From Mycobacteriales bacterium (lineage in GTDB: Bacteria > Actinomycetota > Actinomycetes > JADGOV01): a stretch of 55,965 nt of DNA. Within the stretch, counting starts at the first letter, position 1. Every line of letters begins with the position of its first letter. The notes beneath the pieces are model-generated. The model searched no databases, was not told the DNA's origin, and saw nothing but the letters and a program-made list of their open reading frames with translations. The position numbers and the translations under genes are program-made. This document shows positions 49,540-55,965 of the stretch, one piece after another. The stretch is from NCBI GenBank assembly GCA_038232055.1, contig JBBSIN010000006.1, positions 1-55,965 of the forward strand. The letters run 5' to 3'.

Positions 49540-50001
49540 ATGAACTTCCAGCGACCGTCGCCCCGGCTCTGGACCGCGCGGCGCGTGCAGTGGGCGGTCG
49601 TCAGCGTGGCGCTCCTGCTCGCGGGCGGATCGTTCACCTGGGCGGCAGCCGGGCGTACGGCGGCTGGGATCACCCTCGGCGTCCTTGCTCTGCTCGCCGT
49701 CTGGTGGTGGTTCCTGCTCCGCGGCCGTTACCGCTCGTGGGGCTACCTCGAGCGCGAGGACGACCTGCTCGTCCGACGGGGCCTGCTGGTGCGCCGGCTG
49801 TCGGTCGTGCCGTACGGCCGCATGCAGTTCATCGACGTGACGGCGGGGCCGGTCGAGCGCTGGTTCGGCCTCGCGACCGTACAGCTGCACACCGCTGCGG
49901 CCGGAACCGACGCCAAGATTCCCGGCCTGGCAACGGCGGAGGCGGGTCGGCTGCGCGACCGGCTCGCGACGCTCGGCGAGGCGCGGGCCGCCGGGCTGTG
50001 A
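49540..50001 (+). CDS. bPH_2 domain membrane protein (YdbS-like)
   Basis: Two TM segments, then Y.EREDDLLVRRGLL.RR..VVPYGRMQF.DVT.GP.ER.FGLA.VQLHTAA. Confidence 0.9.
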   Translation: MNFQRPSPRLWTARRVQWAVVSVALLLAGGSFTWAAAGRTAAGITLGVLALLAVWWWFLLRGRYRSWGYLEREDDLLVRRGLLVRRLSVVPYGRMQFIDVTAGPVERWFGLATVQLHTAAAGTDAKIPGLATAEAGRLRDRLATLGEARAAGL

Positions 50002-51317
50002 CGACGACGAACGGGCCGGCGAACACCTCCTGGACCCGCCTGCACCCGCTGTCGCCGCTGCTGCGCTTTGGCCGGGCCGCCGCCGCCCTGGCCGTCGTGG
50101 TCGGGCCGCGTGCCGTCGCCGGAGCCGGCGACTCGCACCTGACCGGACTGGTCCCCGAGGTCCTGCTCATCGCCGCGGCGGCCGTGGCCGGGGCCGTCTA
50201 CTGGCTGGTGACCCGCTGGCGGATCTCCGGAGCGGAGCTGCAGATCGAGACCGGGCTGATCCGCCGCCAGTCGATCCGGGTACCCCTCGCGCGAATCCAG
50301 GCGGTCGACATCGTCCGCCCGTTGCTGGGCCGTTTCCTCGGCCTCGCCGAGCTCCAGGTCGTCGTCGCCGGCAGCGGTCGCAGTCAGAGCCGGTTGGCCT
50401 ACCTGCAGGAGGACGAGGCGCAGCGGGTACGCGCGGAGCTGCTCGCCTTGGCGCACGGCCTCCAAGGCGACACTCCGGAGCCACCAGAGCGACGCCTCTT
50501 CGAGGTCGGCCTCGGCGAACTCGTCGCCTCGGTGGCGCTCGGGGCGCCGGTCGTCGTCGCCGTCCTGTTGGCGATCGGAAGCGCTGCCGCTGTTGTGCTG
50601 ACGCCCATCGGGTTCGTCGTCGTCCTGACGACGTGGCCGGTGCTCTTCGCTATCGGGTCGGTGGGCGTCCGCCGGATTCTCGTCGAGTACGGCTTCACCG
50701 TCGCCGAGGCCCCCGACGGACTTCGGATCCGCAGCGGGCTGCTGCAGACCAGAGCGGAGACGATTCCGATCGGTCGGGTGCAGGCGGTGCGCTGGGTCGA
50801 GCCGCTCCTGTGGCGGCCATTCGGGTGGTGCCGGCTGGAGGTCGACGTGGCGCGGCAGCACGGCGGCCGCGGGTCGGAGCCCGAGACGGCCGAGATGACC
50901 CGCGCCCTGCTGCCGGTGGGCACCCGCGACACGGCGTCCGGTTTGCTGCACCGCGTCCTACCGGAGGCTGCGGTCCGGCCGCCGCACGGTGCCGGACCAC
51001 CGCGTCGGGCGATCTGGCGGGCCCCGCTGTCCTACCGGATGCTCGCCGCATGGCACGACGACCGCTACGTCTGCGCACGCACCGGCCGGGTCCGGCCCAG
51101 CCTTGTCATCGTGCCGCTGGAGAAGGTGCAGAGCCTGCGATGGGTGCAGGGACCGCTGCAGCGTGCGCTACGCCTGGCCAGCGTGCACGTCGACACCGCC
51201 GGTCGACGATGGCAGGCGGTGGCCCGCGCCCGGGACGCCGGCGAGGCCGACGCCATGCTGGTGCGGCTCACCGACCTCTCGGGTCGTGCGCGGCGTTCCG
51301 TGCGGCGGGTCAGCTGA
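49998..51317 (+). CDS. Multi-bPH_2 domain membrane protein (YdbT-like)
   Basis: W.RLHPLSP; three PH repeats (RIQAVDI.RP, RVQAV...EP, KVQS....QGP); GTGA overlap with the upstream gene. Confidence 0.88.
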   Translation: MTTTNGPANTSWTRLHPLSPLLRFGRAAAALAVVVGPRAVAGAGDSHLTGLVPEVLLIAAAAVAGAVYWLVTRWRISGAELQIETGLIRRQSIRVPLARIQAVDIVRPLLGRFLGLAELQVVVAGSGRSQSRLAYLQEDEAQRVRAELLALAHGLQGDTPEPPERRLFEVGLGELVASVALGAPVVVAVLLAIGSAAAVVLTPIGFVVVLTTWPVLFAIGSVGVRRILVEYGFTVAEAPDGLRIRSGLLQTRAETIPIGRVQAVRWVEPLLWRPFGWCRLEVDVARQHGGRGSEPETAEMTRALLPVGTRDTASGLLHRVLPEAAVRPPHGAGPPRRAIWRAPLSYRMLAAWHDDRYVCARTGRVRPSLVIVPLEKVQSLRWVQGPLQRALRLASVHVDTAGRRWQAVARARDAGEADAMLVRLTDLSGRARRSVRRVS

Positions 51318-52506
51318 CGACGCCAGCAGCACTGCGGGCGGCGTACGCCGAGAGCCGGGACACCGCTTCGTCCAGCACTTCTTCGCGCTTGCAGAACGCG
51401 AACCGTACGTACGGCCGGCCGGCCTCGACGTCGTCGTAGAACACGGCAGTGGGGATCGCCGCGACGCCGGCTGCCTCGGGCAGCGCGCGGGCGAAGGCCA
51501 CCCCGTCCTCGACCCCGAGGGAACGTACGTCGGCCTGCACGAAGTAGGTGCCCGCCGGCCGGTGCACGGTGAGCCCGAGCGTCTCCAGGCCCTTGCTCAG
51601 CACGTCGCGGCGAGCCTGCAGCGATGCTCGGGACTGCGCCACCCAGCCGAGCTCGTCGGCGAGCGCGTAGGCGACGGCTGCCTGGAAAGGTCCACCGGCG
51701 GTAAACGTCAGGAACTGCTTGACCGTCGTCACGGCACGGACGAGCTCGGCTGGTGCGCAGATCCAGCCGACCTTCCAGCCGGTCACCGAGAAGGTCTTGC
51801 CGGCCGATGACACCGAGACCGTCCGCTCCCGCATGCCGGGCAGCGTGGCGAGCGGGACGTGCTCGGCTTCGTCGTACGTCAGATGCTCGTAGACCTCGTC
51901 CGTCACGGCCACCAGGTCGTGCTCCCGACAGATCTCCGCGACGACGTCGAGCTCGACCCGGGTCAGCACGGTGCCGGTCGGGTTGTGCGGACTGTTGACC
52001 AGCAGGACCCGGCTGCGCGGCGTGACGGCAGCCCGCAACTCGGTCGGGTCGAAGGTGAACCGCCCGGCCGGACCGTCGGGGCGAAGGGTCACTGGTCTAC
52101 GGATGGCGCCGGCCAAGGCGATGCCGGCGGCATAGGAGTCATAGTAGGGCTCGAAGACCACGACCTCGTCGCCGACCTCGCATAGGGCAAGGAGCGTTGC
52201 GGTGATCGCCTCGGTCGCGCCGACGGTGACCAGCACTTCGCTGTCGGGATCGTACGACACCCCGTAACGCCCGGCGCGATCCGCGGCAATCGCCTGTCGC
52301 AGCACAGGCAGTCCCGGGCCCGGCGGATACTGGTTGAGACCGTCGCGGATGCCCAGGACCGCGCGTTCCAGCATCGCGGTCGGGCCGTCGGTGTCCGGGA
52401 AGCCCTGCCCGAGGTTCACCGCCCCGGTTGCGTTGGCCAGGGCGGTGATCTCGGCGAAGATCGTTGTACCAAAGCCGCGCATGCGGGACACCAGCTGCGC
52501 CGTCAC
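51310..52506 (-). CDS. PLP-dependent aminotransferase class I/II (YbdL / glutamine transaminase / actinobacterial DapC-like)
   Basis: TIFAEI..LA....AVNLGQGFPD, NQY, GATEA, EPYYDSY, NSPHNPTG, DEVYEHL, SAGKTFSVTGWKVGW, RFAFCK. Confidence 0.9.
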   Translation of the reverse strand: MTAQLVSRMRGFGTTIFAEITALANATGAVNLGQGFPDTDGPTAMLERAVLGIRDGLNQYPPGPGLPVLRQAIAADRAGRYGVSYDPDSEVLVTVGATEAITATLLALCEVGDEVVVFEPYYDSYAAGIALAGAIRRPVTLRPDGPAGRFTFDPTELRAAVTPRSRVLLVNSPHNPTGTVLTRVELDVVAEICREHDLVAVTDEVYEHLTYDEAEHVPLATLPGMRERTVSVSSAGKTFSVTGWKVGWICAPAELVRAVTTVKQFLTFTAGGPFQAAVAYALADELGWVAQSRASLQARRDVLSKGLETLGLTVHRPAGTYFVQADVRSLGVEDGVAFARALPEAAGVAAIPTAVFYDDVEAGRPYVRFAFCKREEVLDEAVSRLSAYAARSAAGVVS

Positions 52507-52547
52507 CCGTCCGAGAATAGAGCCAAGCGTCGGGCAGGATGTTCGAC

Positions 52548-53354
52548 ATGAAGGTGGCCATCACGCAGTTCGCGGCGGGTTACGACAAGCCGGCCAACAT
52601 CGCTCGGCTCCGGGACCTGATCGGCCGGGCCGCCGAGACCGGCGCGGAGCTCGTCGTGTGCCCCGAGGCCTCGATGCACCCGTTCGGGCGGGCCGACGAG
52701 TCGCTCGCGGCGGTGGCCGAGCCGATCGACGGCGCGTTCGGGTCGGGCATCGCGGCGGCGTCGGCGGCGTACGGCGTCACAGTGGTGGCCGGCATGTTCG
52801 AGTCGGTCGAAGGCGACGCCGCCCGCGCGTACAACACGGTGGTGGCGGTGAGCGGCGGTGAGCTTCTCGGCCGCTACCGCAAGCTGCACCTCTTCGACGC
52901 GCTCGGGTGGGTCGAGTCCAAGCGACTCGTCCCGGGCGAACTCGACGGGTCGGGGCTACTCACCTTTTTCTGTGGTGACGTGACGGTCGGCGTACTCACC
53001 TGCTACGACGTCCGCTTCCCGGAGCTGAGTCGCGCCCTCGTCGACGCCGGCGCGACGCTGCTCGCGCTCCCGTCGGCCTGGGTCGCCGGTCCGCTCAAGG
53101 AGGACCAGTGGCTGACCCTGGTGCGGGCGCGGGCGATCGAGAACACCTGTTACGTCGCGGCGGCCGACCAGGCAGCTCCGGATTATGCCGGCCGTAGCGT
53201 CGTCGTCGATCCGACCGGCATCCCGCTCGTACAGCTGGGCGACGGAGAGGGGAGTGCCGTCGCCGACGTCTGCGCCGACCGGGTCCGGCAGGTGCGGGAC
53301 AGGATGCCGTCGCTGGAGCATCGCCGCTTCCGGGTCGTCGCGGTGGGCGGTTGA
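52548..53354 (+). CDS. Carbon-nitrogen hydrolase (Nit1/omega-amidase-like)
   Basis: VVCPEA, YRKLHLFDA, TCYDVRFPE, RARAIEN, R..MPSL.HRR. Confidence 0.9.
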   Translation: MKVAITQFAAGYDKPANIARLRDLIGRAAETGAELVVCPEASMHPFGRADESLAAVAEPIDGAFGSGIAAASAAYGVTVVAGMFESVEGDAARAYNTVVAVSGGELLGRYRKLHLFDALGWVESKRLVPGELDGSGLLTFFCGDVTVGVLTCYDVRFPELSRALVDAGATLLALPSAWVAGPLKEDQWLTLVRARAIENTCYVAAADQAAPDYAGRSVVVDPTGIPLVQLGDGEGSAVADVCADRVRQVRDRMPSLEHRRFRVVAVGG

Positions 53355-53424
53355 CATGTCGGGAACGCGGGCCTGCTCCAATAGGCCGACGTAGCCAGAC
53401 AGGCTCGACGATGGGGAGGTTCGG

Positions 53425-53688
53425 ATGGCGCTCGACGACGACGACATGGTGACCACGCCGGGTGGCGGCGGGGCCGAGGGTCCGGCCGACGGAGGCGCGA
53501 GTGGCGTGCCCGGCGGCCAGGACGGCGGCGCGGACGGCGGTGCCGCCACCGATGCGGACGGTGGCGCAGACGGCGGCGCCGACAGCGGTGCCGAGGGCCC
53601 GGCCGACGGGGGCGCGGGCGGCGTGTCCGGCGCGCAGGACGGCGGCGCAGACGGTGGTGCCGACAGCGGCGCGGGTGGCGGCGCCTGA
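53425..53688 (+). CDS. Asp/Gly-rich repetitive small protein; candidate precursor peptide/substrate
   Basis: GGGGAGG RBS 5 nt before ATG; 87 aa: acidic head MALDDDDM then 8 DGGA and 2 DSGA motifs; strong codon bias with synonymous variation between repeats. Confidence 0.85.
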   Translation: MALDDDDMVTTPGGGGAEGPADGGASGVPGGQDGGADGGAATDADGGADGGADSGAEGPADGGAGGVSGAQDGGADGGADSGAGGGA

Positions 53689-53708
53689 GTAGCACCCGCA
53701 CCCGCCTC

Positions 53709-53741
53709 GGCCGGGCGGTCAGCCCCGTCGACCGCCCGGCC
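53709..53741 (+). terminator. 12-bp perfect stem-loop after the peptide gene (attenuator or mRNA stabiliser)
   Basis: GGCCGGGCGGTC-agccccgtc-GACCGCCCGGCC, followed only by TT. Confidence 0.65.
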
Positions 53742-54980
53742 TTGCGGCGTTGCGTGACGCTCGACACTGACCGGTTCGCTGCGCAGTACTGGGGATCGGC
53801 GCCGTACCTCTCGAAAGCAGCGGACGCCAGCCGGTACGACGACCTGCTCACCGTCGCTGCGGTCGACGAGCTGTTGTCCACCCGCGGCCTGCGCACGCCG
53901 TTCCTGCGGATGGCGAAGGACGGACAGGTCCTCGAGGCGCACCGCTACACCGCGAGTGGCGGGGCCGGGGCCGAGATCGGCGACCAGGTTGCTGACGACC
54001 GGGTGCTCGCGCTCTTCGCCGACGGCGCGACCGTTGTGCTGCAGGGGCTGCACCGGTTGTGGCCGCCGCTCGTGGACTTCGGCACCCGACTGACCGCCGA
54101 TCTCGGGCATCCGGTGCAGGTCAACGCCTACGTGACGCCACCATCGTCCCGCGGTTTCTCGGCGCACTACGACGTGCACGACGTCTTCGTGCTCCAGGTG
54201 GCCGGCCGCAAGCGCTGGGTCATCCATCCGCCGGTGCACGCGGCACCGCTGCGCAGCCAGCCATGGACCGACCACAGGGCGGCGGTTGCCGAGGCTGCGA
54301 CGAGGGAGCCGCTGATCGACACGGTTCTCGAGCCGGGCGACGCCCTCTACCTGCCCCGTGGCTACCTGCACTCCGCAGAGGCTCTCGGTGACGTCTGCGT
54401 GCATCTCACGGTGGGCGTGCACGTGCACACGCGGTACGAGATTGCGGAGGCGCTGTGTCAGCTGGCACTGAGCCGGTTGGCGCTGGGCGCTGGGCAACAG
54501 AGCGAACCGGCTGCCGACGGCGATTCCCCCCGGGCGGCGCTGCCGCTCGGCGTCGACGTGGCGGACCCGGACGCCATCTCCGCCGACCTGGCGGTCGTGG
54601 TCGACGCCCTTGCGGACCGGCTGCGGCAGCTGACACCGGCCGACATCGCGGCCGTGCTGGCCGATCATGCCGGCCGAGCCACTAGGCCGGCGCCTCTCAC
54701 GCCGCTCGCGCAGGCGGCCGCGGCCGCTGAGGTGACTTCTACCACCCTGGTCCGCCGGCGTCCGGCGCTGCGTGCCGCACTGCGCGACCGCGGAGACCGC
54801 GTCGCCCTGCGCCTTGCCGATCGCGAGATCTCGCTACCCGGCGCTATCAGACCGGCGCTGACCGCTCTGCTCACCGGCCGGGACGCCACCCCCAGCGACC
54901 TGCCCGGCCTGGAGGCGGACGACGGCATCGTGCTCGTACGACGACTGCTCCGCGAGGGCGTCGTCGTACCCGTCCATTGA
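53742..54980 (+). CDS. JmjC/cupin_4 Fe(II)/2-oxoglutarate hydroxylase (NO66/MINA/ROXA-like)
   Basis: GATVVLQGL, VQVNAYVTP, GFSAHYDVHDVFVLQVAGRKRW (HxD and the 2OG Lys), LEPGDALYLPRGYLHSA (distal His), HLTVG, winged-helix-like C-terminus. Start uncertain; the frame is open back to CTG 53685. Confidence 0.9.
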   Translation: MRRCVTLDTDRFAAQYWGSAPYLSKAADASRYDDLLTVAAVDELLSTRGLRTPFLRMAKDGQVLEAHRYTASGGAGAEIGDQVADDRVLALFADGATVVLQGLHRLWPPLVDFGTRLTADLGHPVQVNAYVTPPSSRGFSAHYDVHDVFVLQVAGRKRWVIHPPVHAAPLRSQPWTDHRAAVAEAATREPLIDTVLEPGDALYLPRGYLHSAEALGDVCVHLTVGVHVHTRYEIAEALCQLALSRLALGAGQQSEPAADGDSPRAALPLGVDVADPDAISADLAVVVDALADRLRQLTPADIAAVLADHAGRATRPAPLTPLAQAAAAAEVTSTTLVRRRPALRAALRDRGDRVALRLADREISLPGAIRPALTALLTGRDATPSDLPGLEADDGIVLVRRLLREGVVVPVH

Positions 54981-55864
54981 CCACCGGCGCCCGCGCGTGG
55001 TGCTCGGTGAACGCGGAGCTTCGCGGCGACCCACCCTGGGCGACGGCTGCCCCGGTCGGTCACTGGCTACTGGTCGAGCAACCGGGACCTTGGGGCCGTG
55101 ATGCAGTCCGGCAGTCGCGGCTTGACCGCGAGGTGGCGGAAGGCGTTCTCGAGCGCAGCCGCGACGCTGGCACGAGGCTGGTGCTTATTCGCCGACCGGC
55201 GAGGGCGGGCTCCGCCACCCGTCGGCGCTGGGCGGTGGTGGACTCTCGGCCGGCGCACGAGCGCATCTCCTGGGGCTGGTTCCAGAGTGACGACGAGCTG
55301 CTTCGCCTGCCGCTCGACGGGTCGGCCGGCGACATCTCGACGGACCCGCTCTATCTGGTTTGCACGCATGGGCGTCACGATGCCTGCTGCGCGCTCCGAG
55401 GCCGGCCGGTGGCTGCCGCGTTCGCCGCCCTCCGCCCGAAGGCGACATGGGAGTGCTCGCACGTCGGTGGCGACCGCTTCGCGGCGAACGTCGTCGCGCT
55501 TCCGCACGGCCTGTACTACGGGCGCGTGACCACAACCCAGGTCGGCGACCTCGTCTCGGCGTACGAGCGGGGCCGGCTGCTGCCCGCCCTGTTGCGCGGC
55601 CGGTCGTCCTACTCCCCTCCGGTCCAGGCGGCCCAGCAGCACGCCTACGCCATCCACGGCGAAGACCGCATCGACGCGCTTCCGCCGGTCACCGTGGAGC
55701 GACTCGGGGATGCGGCGTGGCGGGTGCGCCTCCGGTACGGCGACCAGCTGCACGACGTCGTCGTGCGTGCAGAGCGTGCGGCGCCAGCTCGGCTCACCTG
55801 CTCCGCCATGCGCGACGCGACGACGCTGGTTTACCGGGTCGTCGAGGACGGCTCAACGACCTGA
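54977..55864 (+). CDS. Sucrase/ferredoxin-like (thioredoxin-like ferredoxin) Fe-S protein
   Basis: WLLVEQPGPWG, LVCTHGRHDACCA..GR, WECSHVGGDRFAAN...LPHG.YYGR, RGRS; TTGA overlap with the JmjC stop. Confidence 0.9.
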   Translation: MTTGARAWCSVNAELRGDPPWATAAPVGHWLLVEQPGPWGRDAVRQSRLDREVAEGVLERSRDAGTRLVLIRRPARAGSATRRRWAVVDSRPAHERISWGWFQSDDELLRLPLDGSAGDISTDPLYLVCTHGRHDACCALRGRPVAAAFAALRPKATWECSHVGGDRFAANVVALPHGLYYGRVTTTQVGDLVSAYERGRLLPALLRGRSSYSPPVQAAQQHAYAIHGEDRIDALPPVTVERLGDAAWRVRLRYGDQLHDVVVRAERAAPARLTCSAMRDATTLVYRVVEDGSTT

Positions 55865-55919
55865 CACTTCACCGGCGAGGGTCGTTCGGCTCGTGGCCGA
55901 CCCAGGTGACCATGGCGCC

Positions 55920-55965
55920 TCAGTCGGCGATGTCGGCGAGCACGGCGTCGGTGAACACCGGCCAC
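55920..55965 (-). CDS. 3' end of a gene continuing beyond the window
   Basis: Minus-strand frame reads ...WPVFTDAVLADIAD* with GC-rich third positions. Confidence 0.5.
   Translation of the reverse strand, partial: WPVFTDAVLADIAD

What the first reader, a model, noticed from the sequence alone, without database searches (positions are those of the whole stretch)
53413..55864. Candidate RiPP-like system: (DGGA)n repeat peptide + JmjC hydroxylase + sucrase/ferredoxin Fe-S protein
Seen: three co-oriented, tightly packed genes. The first is an 87-aa peptide with a strong RBS, an acidic head (MALDDDDM) and ten D-[G/S]-G-A units, with no Lys, Arg, Cys, aromatic residue or signal peptide. It is followed by a 12-bp hairpin, a JmjC enzyme with intact H-x-D...H iron ligands, and a Suc_Fer-like protein coupled by a TTGA overlap. 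Known: NO66/MINA53/YcfD-type JmjC enzymes beta-hydroxylate residues in protein substrates; beta-hydroxy-Asp is a Fe(III) ligand in siderophores and is installed by a 2OG oxygenase (CinX) in the RiPP cinnamycin. Inference: the peptide is the dedicated substrate, with repeated Asp hydroxylation giving a metal-binding polypeptide or a multi-core RiPP, and the Fe-S protein acts as redox partner or second modifying enzyme. No protease or exporter is adjacent, so the product may stay intracellular and uncleaved. I know of no characterised pathway with this gene trio.
Basis: partly seen in the sequence, partly recalled or inferred. Interest (0 to 1): 0.9.

Follow-up and report, generated by a model that had tools for sequence, protein, structure and literature searches.

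The report
Acidic repeat protein with dedicated JmjC oxygenase
Many actinobacteria carry an unannotated small Asp/Gly-repeat protein gene locked to a NO66-like iron/2-oxoglutarate oxygenase gene, usually followed by an iron-sulfur protein gene, which looks like an undescribed enzyme-substrate module whose chemistry is still untested.

Summary
The 87-aa (DGGA)n ORF is a real gene. It has a Shine-Dalgarno site, its substitutions fall mostly at third codon positions, and it is the only such ORF in its genome. A relative lies directly upstream of the JmjC gene in 78 of 80 named actinobacterial loci and in 22 of 22 relatives' loci. It was not found in genomes without the JmjC match.

The enzyme is a full-length NO66/MINA53/YcfD-type (ROX) oxygenase with an invariant H-x-D...H triad. 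A cassette-type Suc_Fer (thioredoxin-like Fe-S) gene follows in 70 of 80 loci, so it is a frequent accessory and not part of the core. No protease, exporter or other neighbour is conserved.

New here:
- The JmjC frame usually starts at the peptide's stop codon (NTGA; CTGA in the window).
- A strong GC hairpin sits at this junction.

Best reading (about 0.45): a translationally coupled enzyme-substrate pair in which the oxygenase hydroxylates the repeat protein, most plausibly on Asp, and the product stays in the cell. No chemistry was tested, and the co-fold gave only weak support. My literature searches found no description of it. It is a new variant of a known kind and of high interest.

The parts
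53413..53419 (+). Shine-Dalgarno-like GGGGAGG, 5 nt before the peptide ATG
   Evidence: Read from the sequence. Comparable GGAGG/AGGAG motifs precede the assigned starts in most related loci (listing).
53425..53688 (+). Gene for an 87-aa acidic repeat protein (net charge -17, pI about 4.05). It has no Pfam or NCBIfam family.
   Evidence: 0 of 40 family members hit Pfam. Purifying selection: differences by codon position are 48/53/218, and changed codons are 178 synonymous versus 81 nonsynonymous, in 8 close equal-length pairs. Charge.
53425..53457 (+). N-terminal acidic head MALDDDDMVTT, the best conserved part across divergent branches and a candidate docking (leader-like) element
   Evidence: Alignment A2: M1 invariant, D5 and D6 at least 90%. 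A strict head motif occurs in 53 of 78 upstream ORFs, with looser acidic versions in most of the rest. The head is kept in the distant (DADxTD)n branch.
53476..53544 (+). Repeat module 1, EGPADGGASGVPGGQDGGADGGA
   Evidence: Module pattern [EH]G[PT]ADGG..x..[HQTSAR]DGGADG: 205 modules in 71 of 72 peptides. DGGAD columns are invariant in A2.
53593..53661 (+). Repeat module 2, EGPADGGAGGVSGAQDGGADGGA
53685..53688 (+). CTGA: the peptide stop TGA overlapped by a CTG in the JmjC frame. Relatives have GTGA, ATGA or TTGA start/stop overlaps at this position.
   Evidence: In 46 of 79 loci the JmjC frame is -1 to the peptide frame, and in 46 of 46 of these it is open from this codon onward. The codon is GTG in 17, ATG in 4, TTG in 1, CTG in 20, and 4 loci have TAG/TAA stops.
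53709..53741 (+). Perfect 12-bp GC-rich hairpin with a 9-nt loop. Its 3' arm ends at the TTG of the listed JmjC ORF. The extended structure spans 53692-53760.
   Evidence: dG -43.4, z -3.61. The junction hairpin is conserved: dG at or below -25 in 64 of 70 loci. A perfect stem of 9 bp or more occurs in 32 of 68 loci versus 1 of 68 same-length controls 3 kb away.
53742..54980 (+). NO66/MINA53/YcfD-type (ROX) JmjC Fe(II)/2OG oxygenase, 412 aa from the TTG. It may start earlier, at CTG 53685.
   Evidence: PF08007 at 4.4e-28. A profile search against PDB gives NO66 at 1.4e-35. The AF2 model has pLDDT 88.4. The top Foldseek hit is NO66 4y33_A at E 3.5e-26, aligned over the full length.
54165..54173 (+). 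H142-Y-D144 of the iron-binding triad
   Evidence: Invariant in 12 of 12 sequences. Codons read.
54369..54371 (+). H210, the distal iron ligand
   Evidence: Invariant in 12 of 12 sequences.
54977..55864 (+). Suc_Fer-like protein (295 aa) with a thioredoxin-like [2Fe-2S] ferredoxin domain. Its start TTG overlaps the JmjC stop (TTGA).
   Evidence: PF06999 at 2.2e-21. The AF2 model has pLDDT 90.9. Foldseek matches the Aquifex thioredoxin-like [2Fe-2S] ferredoxin 1m2d_A at E 6.7e-3, TMt 0.70, over about 105 columns.
55361..55390 (+). C129-x-H131-x2-H134-D135-x-C137-C138, candidate cluster ligands
   Evidence: All invariant in 29 of 29 sequences.
55460..55474 (+). H162-x-G-G-D166, the second candidate ligand motif
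   Evidence: H162, G164 and G165 are invariant. Position 166 is D in 24, E in 3 and C in 2 of 29 sequences.

Best explanation
This is a self-contained module that is widespread in actinobacteria. Its core is two translationally coupled genes. The first encodes a small, intrinsically disordered, very acidic protein with an acidic head followed by Asp/Gly/Ala repeat modules. The second encodes a NO66-like JmjC Fe(II)/2-oxoglutarate oxygenase. I read the small protein as the oxygenase's dedicated, co-encoded substrate.

Proposed mechanism:
1. The head, and possibly the modules, dock on the enzyme.
2. The enzyme hydroxylates side chains in the repeats. Asp C-beta is the most plausible site, because Asp is the only functional side chain conserved in every family member.
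3. The product stays in the cytoplasm as a poly-hydroxylated acidic polypeptide, perhaps a metal-binding or buffering species.
4. The stop/start overlap and the strong hairpin at the junction tie enzyme synthesis to translation of the substrate gene and keep the enzyme level below the substrate level.
5. The cassette-type thioredoxin-like Fe-S protein is a frequent accessory, probably a redox helper (for example re-reducing the iron centre) or a binding partner.

Shown: gene reality, conservation, linkage, coupling geometry, the hairpin, intact catalytic residues, and the folds. Inferred: substrate relationship, target residue, fate and role of the product, and the role of the Fe-S protein.
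For: Trio and domains.

The peptide gene is translated and selected:
- A Shine-Dalgarno site is present.
- Differences by codon position are 48/53/218, and changed codons are 178 synonymous versus 81 nonsynonymous, in 8 close pairs.
- Only 1 of 38,085 ORFs in the genome has 5 or more repeat units.

Linkage:
- A repeat ORF lies upstream of the JmjC gene in 78 of 80 named loci. One of the 2 misses has only 31 nt of upstream sequence.
- An Asp-rich ORF ends 10-173 nt upstream of JmjC in 22 of 22 relatives' loci, L002-L023.
- The peptide HMM hit 15 of 61 related genomes, with each genome's best hit beside its JmjC gene. It hit 0 of the 34 genomes without a JmjC match.
- No other neighbour gene cluster occurs in more than 10 of 80 loci.

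Coupling and hairpin:
- The JmjC frame is -1 to the peptide frame in 46 of 79 loci, and it is open from the stop-overlapping codon in 46 of 46 of these.
- The junction hairpin has dG at or below -25 in 64 of 70 loci. Perfect stems of 9 bp or more occur in 32 of 68 loci versus 1 of 68 controls.

Enzyme competence:
- H142, D144, H210 and K157 are invariant in 12 of 12 sequences.
- NO66 is the best solved relative by sequence (1.4e-35) and by fold (3.5e-26).

Binding: the co-fold verdict was weak support.
- Score 0.49; the best of 3 controls was 0.02.
- The pass mark was reached by 58 of 80 solved complexes and 2 of 110 mismatched pairs. At 0.60 or under it was reached by only 7 of those 80, and by both mismatches that passed.
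- The runs agree in at least 23% of contacts, and the partner pLDDT is at least 36.

Target residue:
- The DGGAD columns are invariant.
- His precedes DGGAD in only 97 of 205 modules, and 17 of 72 peptides, including the window's, have no His at all.

Precedent: JmjC hydroxylases act on co-encoded peptides in RiPP clusters (PMC12257519, passages read; PMC12710340, passage read).
Against: - No chemistry was tested, so no mass shift, product or activity is known.
- Every characterised ROX enzyme named in the PDB hits (NO66, MINA53, YcfD) hydroxylates His or Arg of a ribosomal protein. None acts on Asp of an acidic peptide.
- The JmjC protein is itself acidic (pI 5.95; median 5.7 over 12 relatives), so there is no global charge complementarity with a substrate of net charge -17.
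- The co-fold pass is in the weak band, and no interface was reported.
- The strict head motif is present in only 53 of 78 ORFs.
- The Suc_Fer gene was not found in the 8-kb downstream flank in 10 of 80 loci. Its family is found in 40 of 61 related genomes, including genomes without this JmjC, so its role in the module is uncertain.
- No expression data could be obtained.
Confidence: 0.45

Rival explanations
1. The JmjC enzyme is an ordinary ribosomal oxygenase that hydroxylates a ribosomal protein, as YcfD, NO66 and MINA53 do. On this reading the acidic repeat protein is not its substrate but a co-made regulator, inhibitor, chaperone or decoy, for example an acidic mimic that holds or times the enzyme.
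For: All closest solved relatives are ribosomal-protein hydroxylases. Automatic database names for the relatives say the same. The own genome has only this one JmjC match, so no second ROX copy was found to take the ribosomal role. About half of the modules (97 of 205) carry a Gly-flanked His, as NO66 and MINA53 substrates do by my recollection (for the count; the substrate context is recalled).
Against: The enzyme was matched in only 27 of 61 related genomes, and wherever it is a close relative it is tied to the peptide gene. That pattern is unexpected for a housekeeping ribosome modifier. The stop/start overlap plus hairpin predict more peptide than enzyme, which suits a substrate better than a 1:1 inhibitor. 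The co-fold places the peptide on the enzyme with weak support, which does not distinguish a substrate from an inhibitor.
Confidence: 0.2
2. This is a classical multi-core RiPP. The modules would be cut out and exported by a protease and a transporter encoded elsewhere, yielding small hydroxy-Asp peptides such as metallophores.
For: The layout is leader-like: a conserved head before variable repeated modules. A modifying enzyme lies adjacent. JmjC (PF08007) homologues in RiPP-like contexts are reported (PMC12710340, passage read), and JmjC hydroxylases occur in the biphenomycin cluster (PMC12257519, passages read).
Against: No protease, exporter or any other gene is conserved within 8 kb; the next most frequent neighbour cluster occurs in 10 of 80 loci. 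The peptide has no signal peptide or recognisable cleavage motif (read from the sequence). The cassette is broadly and apparently vertically distributed rather than sporadic.
Confidence: 0.1
3. The repeat protein is an unmodified metal-binding or buffering protein, or an iron donor, that serves the two iron proteins encoded downstream. The linkage would then reflect cofactor supply, not modification.
For: The composition is extremely Asp-rich (G 35%, A 17%, D 16% over the family). Both partners are iron proteins. One database protein, P0166, carries three such modules at the C-terminus of a cation-efflux (PF01545) transporter ORF.
Against: The P0166 fusion may be a read-through ORF. A cation-efflux gene is near the cassette in only 1 of the 110 loci held, and none was found in the own genome. 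This reading does not explain why the pairing is specific to one ROX clade, or why the head is conserved.
Confidence: 0.1
4. A programmed -1 ribosomal frameshift at the end of the peptide ORF, stimulated by the hairpin, makes a peptide-JmjC fusion protein.
For: The JmjC frame is -1 and open through the peptide stop in 46 of 46 loci of that class. In 13 of the 20 CTGA loci there is no ATG, GTG or TTG between the overlap codon and JmjC residue +5. In 9 of them there is none up to +50 codons. A strong hairpin starts a median of 12.5 nt after the overlap or start codon.
Against: No X-XXY-YYZ slippery heptamer precedes the stop; the sequences there are of the type GGC-TCG-GCC-TGA. 22 loci have canonical GTGA, ATGA or TTGA overlaps, which explain expression by ordinary coupling. 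33 of 79 loci use other frames with their own start codons. The apparent long 'fusion' proteins in databases (P0260, P0232, P0272, P0222, P0254) read as frameshifted assemblies.
Confidence: 0.03

Closest known systems
Ribosomal oxygenases (ROX): human NO66 and MINA53, E. coli YcfD/RoxA, Rhodothermus YcfD-like
   Same: Same Pfam family (PF08007), the same H-x-D...H triad, and the same three-part architecture of JmjC barrel, helical domain and C-terminal winged-helix-like domain. NO66 is the best hit by sequence profile (1.4e-35) and by fold (E 3.5e-26, full-length alignment). The H-x-T motif (H221, T223 invariant) is the one that Iyer et al. 2010 list for the bacterial versions closest to the eukaryotic enzymes (PMC2938197, passage read).
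   Different: The known members act on ribosomal proteins encoded elsewhere. This clade is always encoded just behind, and is often translationally coupled to, a small acidic repeat protein gene. A His or Arg target is excluded for the 17 of 72 peptides without His, and the window's peptide has neither His nor Arg.
JmjC/cupin hydroxylases in RiPP clusters (BpmG and PbsQ of the biphenomycin-type pathways; the curacozole Phe hydroxylase)
   Same: A JmjC-type oxygenase hydroxylates a side chain of a co-encoded ribosomal peptide (PMC12257519, passages read; PMC11575548 and PMC12707348, search listing only).
   Different: Those clusters carry several other tailoring enzymes, RRE proteins and proteases. 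Their cores are short and hydrophobic or aromatic, and their products are exported antibiotics. Here the module is two or three genes with no conserved protease or exporter, and the 'core' is a long Asp/Gly repeat.
FIH (factor inhibiting HIF), AspH and CinX, the Asp/Asn beta-hydroxylases
   Same: They are a chemical precedent for beta-hydroxylation of Asp/Asn in proteins and peptides by Fe(II)/2OG oxygenases (recalled, not tested here). FIH is a distant structural relative of the model (Foldseek E 3.5e-9).
   Different: They belong to different families (no AspH-type Pfam match), have different substrates (ankyrin repeats, EGF domains, cinnamycin), and have no co-encoded repeat substrate.
Thioredoxin-like [2Fe-2S] ferredoxins (Aquifex Fd4, Azotobacter FeSI) and the Suc_Fer-like proteins Apd1 and Aim32 of yeast
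   Same: A PF06999 match. The central domain superposes on Aquifex Fd4 (TMt 0.70). The paired Cys motif and the H-x-G-G-x motif are conserved. The Cys2His2-type ligation of Apd1 and Aim32 is recalled; those papers were seen only in the search listing.
   Different: The second His of the H-x-G-G-H motif (recalled) is Asp, Glu or Cys here. The protein has extra N- and C-terminal domains with no solved match. No partnership with a JmjC enzyme turned up in my searches.

Membership tests
ROX / JmjC_2 (PF08007) Fe(II)/2OG oxygenases | Pfam JmjC_2 match above the gathering score | tested here: met
   97.8 bits against a cut-off of 22, E 4.4e-28.
ROX / JmjC_2 (PF08007) Fe(II)/2OG oxygenases | H-x-D...H iron triad and a basic 2OG-binding residue | tested here: met
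   H142, D144, H210 and K157 are invariant in 12 of 12 sequences. That K157 is the 2OG binder is inferred from its position, not shown.
ROX / JmjC_2 (PF08007) Fe(II)/2OG oxygenases | Three-domain architecture: JmjC barrel, helical dimerisation domain, C-terminal winged helix | tested here: met
   The AF2 model has pLDDT 88.4, with helices at 231-329 and a beta-beta-beta-alpha-alpha-beta unit at 337-410. Foldseek aligns about 458 columns to NO66 with TMq 0.58.
ROX / JmjC_2 (PF08007) Fe(II)/2OG oxygenases | Hydroxylates a ribosomal protein (uL16 Arg, uL2 His or uL15 His) | not testable with these tools
   This needs ribosome mass spectrometry. The gene context points instead to the co-encoded peptide.
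RiPP biosynthetic gene cluster | Short precursor gene next to the modifying enzyme, with a conserved leader-like part and a variable core | tested here: met
   78 of 80 loci. A conserved head and variable repeats.
RiPP biosynthetic gene cluster | Leader-binding element (RRE or equivalent) in the enzyme | tested here: inconclusive
   The C-terminal winged-helix-like domain is present, and RRE-like folds fused to PF08007 are reported (PMC12710340, passage read). However, the co-fold reported no interface.
RiPP biosynthetic gene cluster | Leader protease and/or exporter in the cluster; a released mature peptide | tested here: not met
   No neighbour gene cluster other than JmjC and Suc_Fer occurs in more than 10 of 80 loci within 8 kb. 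Release of a mature product is not testable here.
Suc_Fer-like / thioredoxin-like [2Fe-2S] ferredoxin | PF06999 match and a thioredoxin-like ferredoxin fold | tested here: met
   77.2 bits against a cut-off of 34.9. Foldseek gives 1m2d_A at E 6.7e-3, probability 1.00, TMt 0.70. The fold match is modest and covers only about 105 of 295 residues.
Suc_Fer-like / thioredoxin-like [2Fe-2S] ferredoxin | Four cluster ligands | tested here: inconclusive
   C129, C137, C138 and H162 are invariant, and position 166 is D, E or C. Which four residues bind the cluster, and whether a cluster is bound at all, needs spectroscopy.
Programmed -1 frameshift cassette | Slippery heptamer 5-9 nt before a stimulatory structure | tested here: not met
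   No X-XXY-YYZ motif is seen before the stop in the 46 loci of the -1 class (listing). The hairpin is present.

The most novel reading that the evidence does not exclude
Actinobacteria make a genetically encoded 'poly-(beta-hydroxy-Asp)' polypeptide. On this reading a NO66-like ribosomal-oxygenase homologue has been re-targeted to a dedicated, co-translated, intrinsically disordered Asp/Gly repeat protein and hydroxylates it many times over. The result would be an intracellular metal-binding or oxygen/iron/2OG-reporting polymer. It would be the first non-ribosomal, co-encoded substrate of a bacterial ROX enzyme. In part of the family, enzyme synthesis would depend on re-initiation at a CUG that overlaps the substrate's stop codon.
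Probability: 0.25. Interest if true: 0.88.

Novelty: new variant of a known kind. Interest (0 to 1): 0.8.

Why it matters
ROX-type JmjC oxygenases are conserved from bacteria to humans, yet the substrates named for their solved structures are all ribosomal proteins. Here a large actinobacterial clade is genetically locked to a small protein that no family database describes.

If the small protein is the substrate, three things follow:
- The substrate range of the ROX family widens.
- An abundant new post-translationally modified acidic polypeptide, with possible metal or oxygen biology, is defined in soil and desert actinobacteria.
- There is a simple two-gene system in which substrate recognition by a NO66-like enzyme can be studied.

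The peptide gene is badly under-called. Only 119 representatives in 1.84 billion proteins match its profile, so current annotation misses it. The CTGA junctions also offer a natural test case for non-AUG re-initiation in high-GC bacteria.

Tried and rejected
Lines of work that led nowhere or were rejected:

- GC-by-codon-position frame analysis of the peptide ORF was uninformative, because the GAC-GGC-GGC-GCN repeat makes all positions GC-rich. I replaced it with comparative codon-position counts.
- Expression: no RNA holder was listed for window 53300-55900.
- Rfam gave no match in 53200-53900. No T-tract terminator was found in 53000-55965.
- Global charge complementarity between the JmjC protein and the peptide was not found. 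The crude genome background in that script is unreliable and I do not use it.
- Natural peptide-JmjC fusions: the 'longer' search gave 5 proteins. The profile search gave several long hits, and those I read (P0260, P0232, P0272, P0222, P0254) look like frameshifted assemblies. P0166, a cation-efflux ORF with three modules, may be a read-through ORF. A cation-efflux gene is near the cassette in only 1 locus.
- Programmed frameshifting was considered and rejected for lack of a slippery site.
- The wider window context (CN-hydrolase, aminotransferase) is not conserved with the cassette; the CN-hydrolase was found only in the own locus.
- Sequence search of Suc_Fer against PDB gave nothing significant.
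- Literature searches found no description of this cassette. The supplements of PMC2938197 (bacterial MINA/NO66 neighbourhoods) and PMC12710340 (JmjC-RRE contexts) could bear on the claim that it is not in print.

Full report
**1.
- The window is a whole 55,965-bp contig of a 2.2-Mb, 86%-complete, 70%-GC genome. It ends about 100 bp after the Suc_Fer gene.
- Peptide gene: the ORF at 53425-53688 encodes 87 aa, starting MALDDDDMVTT, with ten D-[G/S]-G-A units. It contains only M, A, L, D, V, T, P, G, E, S and Q. GGGGAGG lies 5 nt before the ATG.
- Hairpin: a perfect 12-bp hairpin spans 53709-53741, and the fold of the region has dG -43.4 and z -3.61.
- JmjC gene: 53742-54980 matches PF08007 and Cupin_8.
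- Suc_Fer gene: 54977-55864 matches PF06999 and starts in a TTGA overlap.
- NCBIfam names none of the three genes, and Pfam has nothing for the peptide.

**2. The small ORF is a real gene.**
- Composition by codon position is uninformative for such a repeat, so I used comparison.
- In 8 close, equal-length pairs of homologous peptide genes, differences fall 48/53/218 on codon positions 1/2/3. Changed codons are 178 synonymous against 81 nonsynonymous. The pairs are not independent.
- In the own genome only 1 of 38,085 six-frame ORFs has 5 or more repeat units.
- Assigned starts in related loci are preceded by GGAGG-like motifs.

**3. The pairing is conserved across the phylum.**
The 80 best are from Actinokineospora, Kribbella, Amycolatopsis, Pseudonocardia, Geodermatophilus, Blastococcus, Modestobacter, Micromonospora, Actinoplanes, Agromyces, Curtobacterium, Cellulomonas, Gordonia, Mycolicibacterium, Rhodococcoides and Thermoleophilia MAGs, among others.
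- In 78 of these 80 loci a same-strand upstream ORF carries at least 3 repeat units. One of the two misses (L092) has only 31 nt of upstream sequence. The other (L098) is a MAG contig labelled Pyrinomonadaceae.
- Unnamed relatives: JmjC was matched in 27 of 61 genomes. All 22 loci with a close JmjC (L002-L023) have an Asp-rich ORF ending 10-173 nt upstream.
- A profile of the peptide hit 15 of 61 genomes, and each genome's best hit lies beside its JmjC gene (one extra, unlinked hit was in the unpublished genome G044). It hit none of the 34 genomes without a JmjC match.
- Beyond JmjC and Suc_Fer, no neighbour gene cluster occurs in more than 10 of 80 loci. No protease or exporter is part of the unit.

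**4. Anatomy of the peptide family.**
- Most members begin M-[AS]-[LI]-[DN]-D-D-D-[IM]-T-T. The strict motif is present in 53 of 78 ORFs, and most of the rest have looser acidic heads.
- Modules of the type [EH]G[PT]ADGG-x(3-10)-[H/Q/T/S/A/R]-DGGADG[GST]A follow: 205 modules in 71 of 72 peptides.
- Most members end in ...G[ST]A.
- In branches where the JmjC protein is only 35-47% identical, the head is kept but the repeats change to the (DADxTD)n or GDADQGDSD types.
- Family composition is G 35%, A 17% and D 16%.
- His precedes DGGAD in 97 of 205 modules, but 17 of 72 peptides, including this one, have no His. Asp is therefore the only functional side chain common to all members.
- The gene is badly under-called: only 119 of 1.84 billion protein representatives match the profile at E of 1e-3 or better.
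- Database names are 'hypothetical protein', with an occasional automatic 'BatC protein'.

**5. The enzyme.**
- H142, D144, H210, K157, N128, Y130 and T132 are invariant in 12 of 12 sequences.
- The best solved relatives are NO66 (profile E 1.4e-35), MINA53, the Rhodothermus YcfD-like enzyme, YxbC and YcfD.
- The AF2 model (pLDDT 88.4, pTM 0.83) aligns over its full length to NO66 (E 3.5e-26), then to MINA53 and YcfD. FIH and JMJD5 follow far behind.
- It is therefore a complete ROX-type oxygenase, including the C-terminal winged-helix-like domain.
- Mitchell and co-workers note RRE-like folds fused to PF08007 and bacterial homologues in RiPP-like contexts (PMC12710340, passage read).

**6. 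The Fe-S protein.**
- The model (pLDDT 90.9) has a central domain like the Aquifex thioredoxin-like [2Fe-2S] ferredoxin (E 6.7e-3, TMt 0.70).
- C129, H131, H134, D135, C137, C138 and H162 are invariant, and position 166 is D, E or C.
- The gene follows JmjC directly in 67 of 80 loci and within about 1 kb in 3 more. No copy was found in the 8-kb downstream flank of the other 10, which are mainly Micromonosporaceae.
- The family is found in 40 of 61 related genomes, including some without this JmjC. The copies next to JmjC score highest.
- It is therefore a frequent, probably specialised, accessory and not part of the core.

**7. The junction (new here).**
- In 46 of 79 loci the JmjC frame is -1 relative to the peptide frame. 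In all 46 it is open from the codon that overlaps the peptide stop. That codon is GTG in 17, ATG in 4, TTG in 1 and CTG in 20; the other 4 loci have TAG or TAA stops.
- The window has CTGA at 53685-53688.
- In 13 of the CTGA loci there is no ATG, GTG or TTG between that codon and JmjC residue +5. In 9 of them, including isolates of Geodermatophilus and Blastococcus, there is none up to 50 codons into the conserved body.
- Database N-termini for these proteins are inconsistent.
- A strong hairpin (dG at or below -25 in 64 of 70 loci) starts a median of 12.5 nt after the most upstream possible start, and within 0-45 nt in 55 of 70 loci.
- Perfect stems of 9 bp or more occur in 32 of 68 junctions against 1 of 68 control stretches. 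The stem sequences differ between lineages.
- Inference: JmjC is made mainly by ribosomes that have just finished the peptide ORF, and at a lower level than the peptide. In the CTGA lineages this probably happens by re-initiation at CUG. A -1 frameshift fusion is unlikely because there is no slippery heptamer.

**8. Binding prediction.**
- A co-fold of JmjC (alignment A1) with the peptide (alignment A2) gave a verdict of weak support: score 0.49, with the best of 3 controls at 0.02.
- The pass mark was reached by 58 of 80 solved complexes and 2 of 110 mismatched pairs. At 0.60 or under it was reached by only 7 of the 80, and by both mismatches that passed.
- The runs agree in at least 23% of contacts, the partner pLDDT is at least 36, and no interface was given.

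**9. Interpretation.**
- The tight, phylum-wide, translationally coupled pairing of a catalytically intact protein hydroxylase with a conserved-head, variable-repeat small protein is best explained as an enzyme with its dedicated substrate. No other conserved genes belong to the unit.
- Asp C-beta is the most plausible site. This rests on elimination and on recalled precedent (FIH, AspH, CinX).
- The fate of the product is inferred to be intracellular, and a metal-related role is only a guess.
- The main rival is that the enzyme still modifies a ribosomal protein and the peptide regulates it.
- Evidence against the main reading: all solved relatives are ribosomal hydroxylases, the enzyme is acidic overall, the co-fold support is weak, and there are no expression or chemical data.

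**10. Novelty.**
- Searches for JmjC with Actinobacteria and RiPP, for Suc_Fer-like, sucrase ferredoxin/Apd1/Aim32, ribosomal oxygenase with precursor peptide, hydroxyaspartate, and cupin 4 with small protein found no description of this cassette.
- The 2010 survey of bacterial JmjC gene neighbourhoods mentions ATP-grasp, cyanophage and tRNA-modification contexts for the MINA/NO66 clade, but not this one, in the passages I read (PMC2938197). Its supplement could not be seen.
- The enzyme families and the idea of a JmjC enzyme acting on a co-encoded peptide are known. The substrate family, the three-gene unit and the junction design appear to be undescribed.

Noticed in passing
window 53685-53760; L038, L043, L045, L047, L052, L088, L091, L095, L108 at the peptide/JmjC junction: In 9 loci, including Geodermatophilus and Blastococcus isolates, the JmjC gene has no in-frame ATG, GTG or TTG from the peptide stop to 50 codons into its conserved body. 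The only candidate start is a CTG that overlaps the peptide stop (CTGA). Database N-termini for such proteins disagree, for example MRRCT... versus MTADPTTQ....
   Followed up: partly
protein P0166: A 477-aa cation-efflux (PF01545) ORF ends in three EGPADGG...HDGGADGG modules, after about 60 residues that look like translated spacer. It is either a real fusion, which would hint at metal binding, or a read-through ORF. A cation-efflux gene is near the cassette in only 1 locus, L064.
   Followed up: partly
L025:1122-1268 (+) and the homologous small ORF upstream of JmjC in L029: Two distant JmjC paralogues (about 27% identity) in one related genome each have a different small acidic ORF of 40-48 aa just upstream (..D[DE]L[IV][IV]A[IV]E.L..V.DR[FY]D.E.SDS..). 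Pairing of ROX-like enzymes with upstream acidic peptides may therefore be wider than the (DGGA)n family.
   Followed up: no
L045 and L088: Two separate copies of the whole cassette (peptide, JmjC, Suc_Fer) lie on two contigs of the same Thermoleophilia MAG. Their peptides are near-identical, with the head MTDETRDEHGPADGG.
   Followed up: no
L053, L063, L066, L072, L077, L100 (Kribbella): Kribbella versions of the peptide are much longer (157-225 aa). They have extra Gly/Ser/Tyr-rich stretches between the modules, and most end in ...NSGSW.
   Followed up: no
window 51310-53354: A divergent pair of genes lies just upstream: a class I/II aminotransferase (51310-52506, minus strand) and a CN-hydrolase most like deaminated-glutathione amidase but below the family cut-off (52539-53354, plus strand). 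This neighbourhood is not conserved with the cassette; the hydrolase was found only in the own locus.
   Followed up: partly
window 49540-51317: Two adjacent bacterial PH-domain (bPH_2, PF03703) genes: one of 153 aa with one domain and one of about 438 aa with three.
   Followed up: no
window 52956-54668 (-) and 53462-53692 (+): Long open frames on the opposite strand (570 aa) and in another forward frame (76 aa) cross the peptide and JmjC genes. They are Arg/Pro/Ala-rich by-products of the GC-rich repeat and show no sign of being genes.
   Followed up: partly
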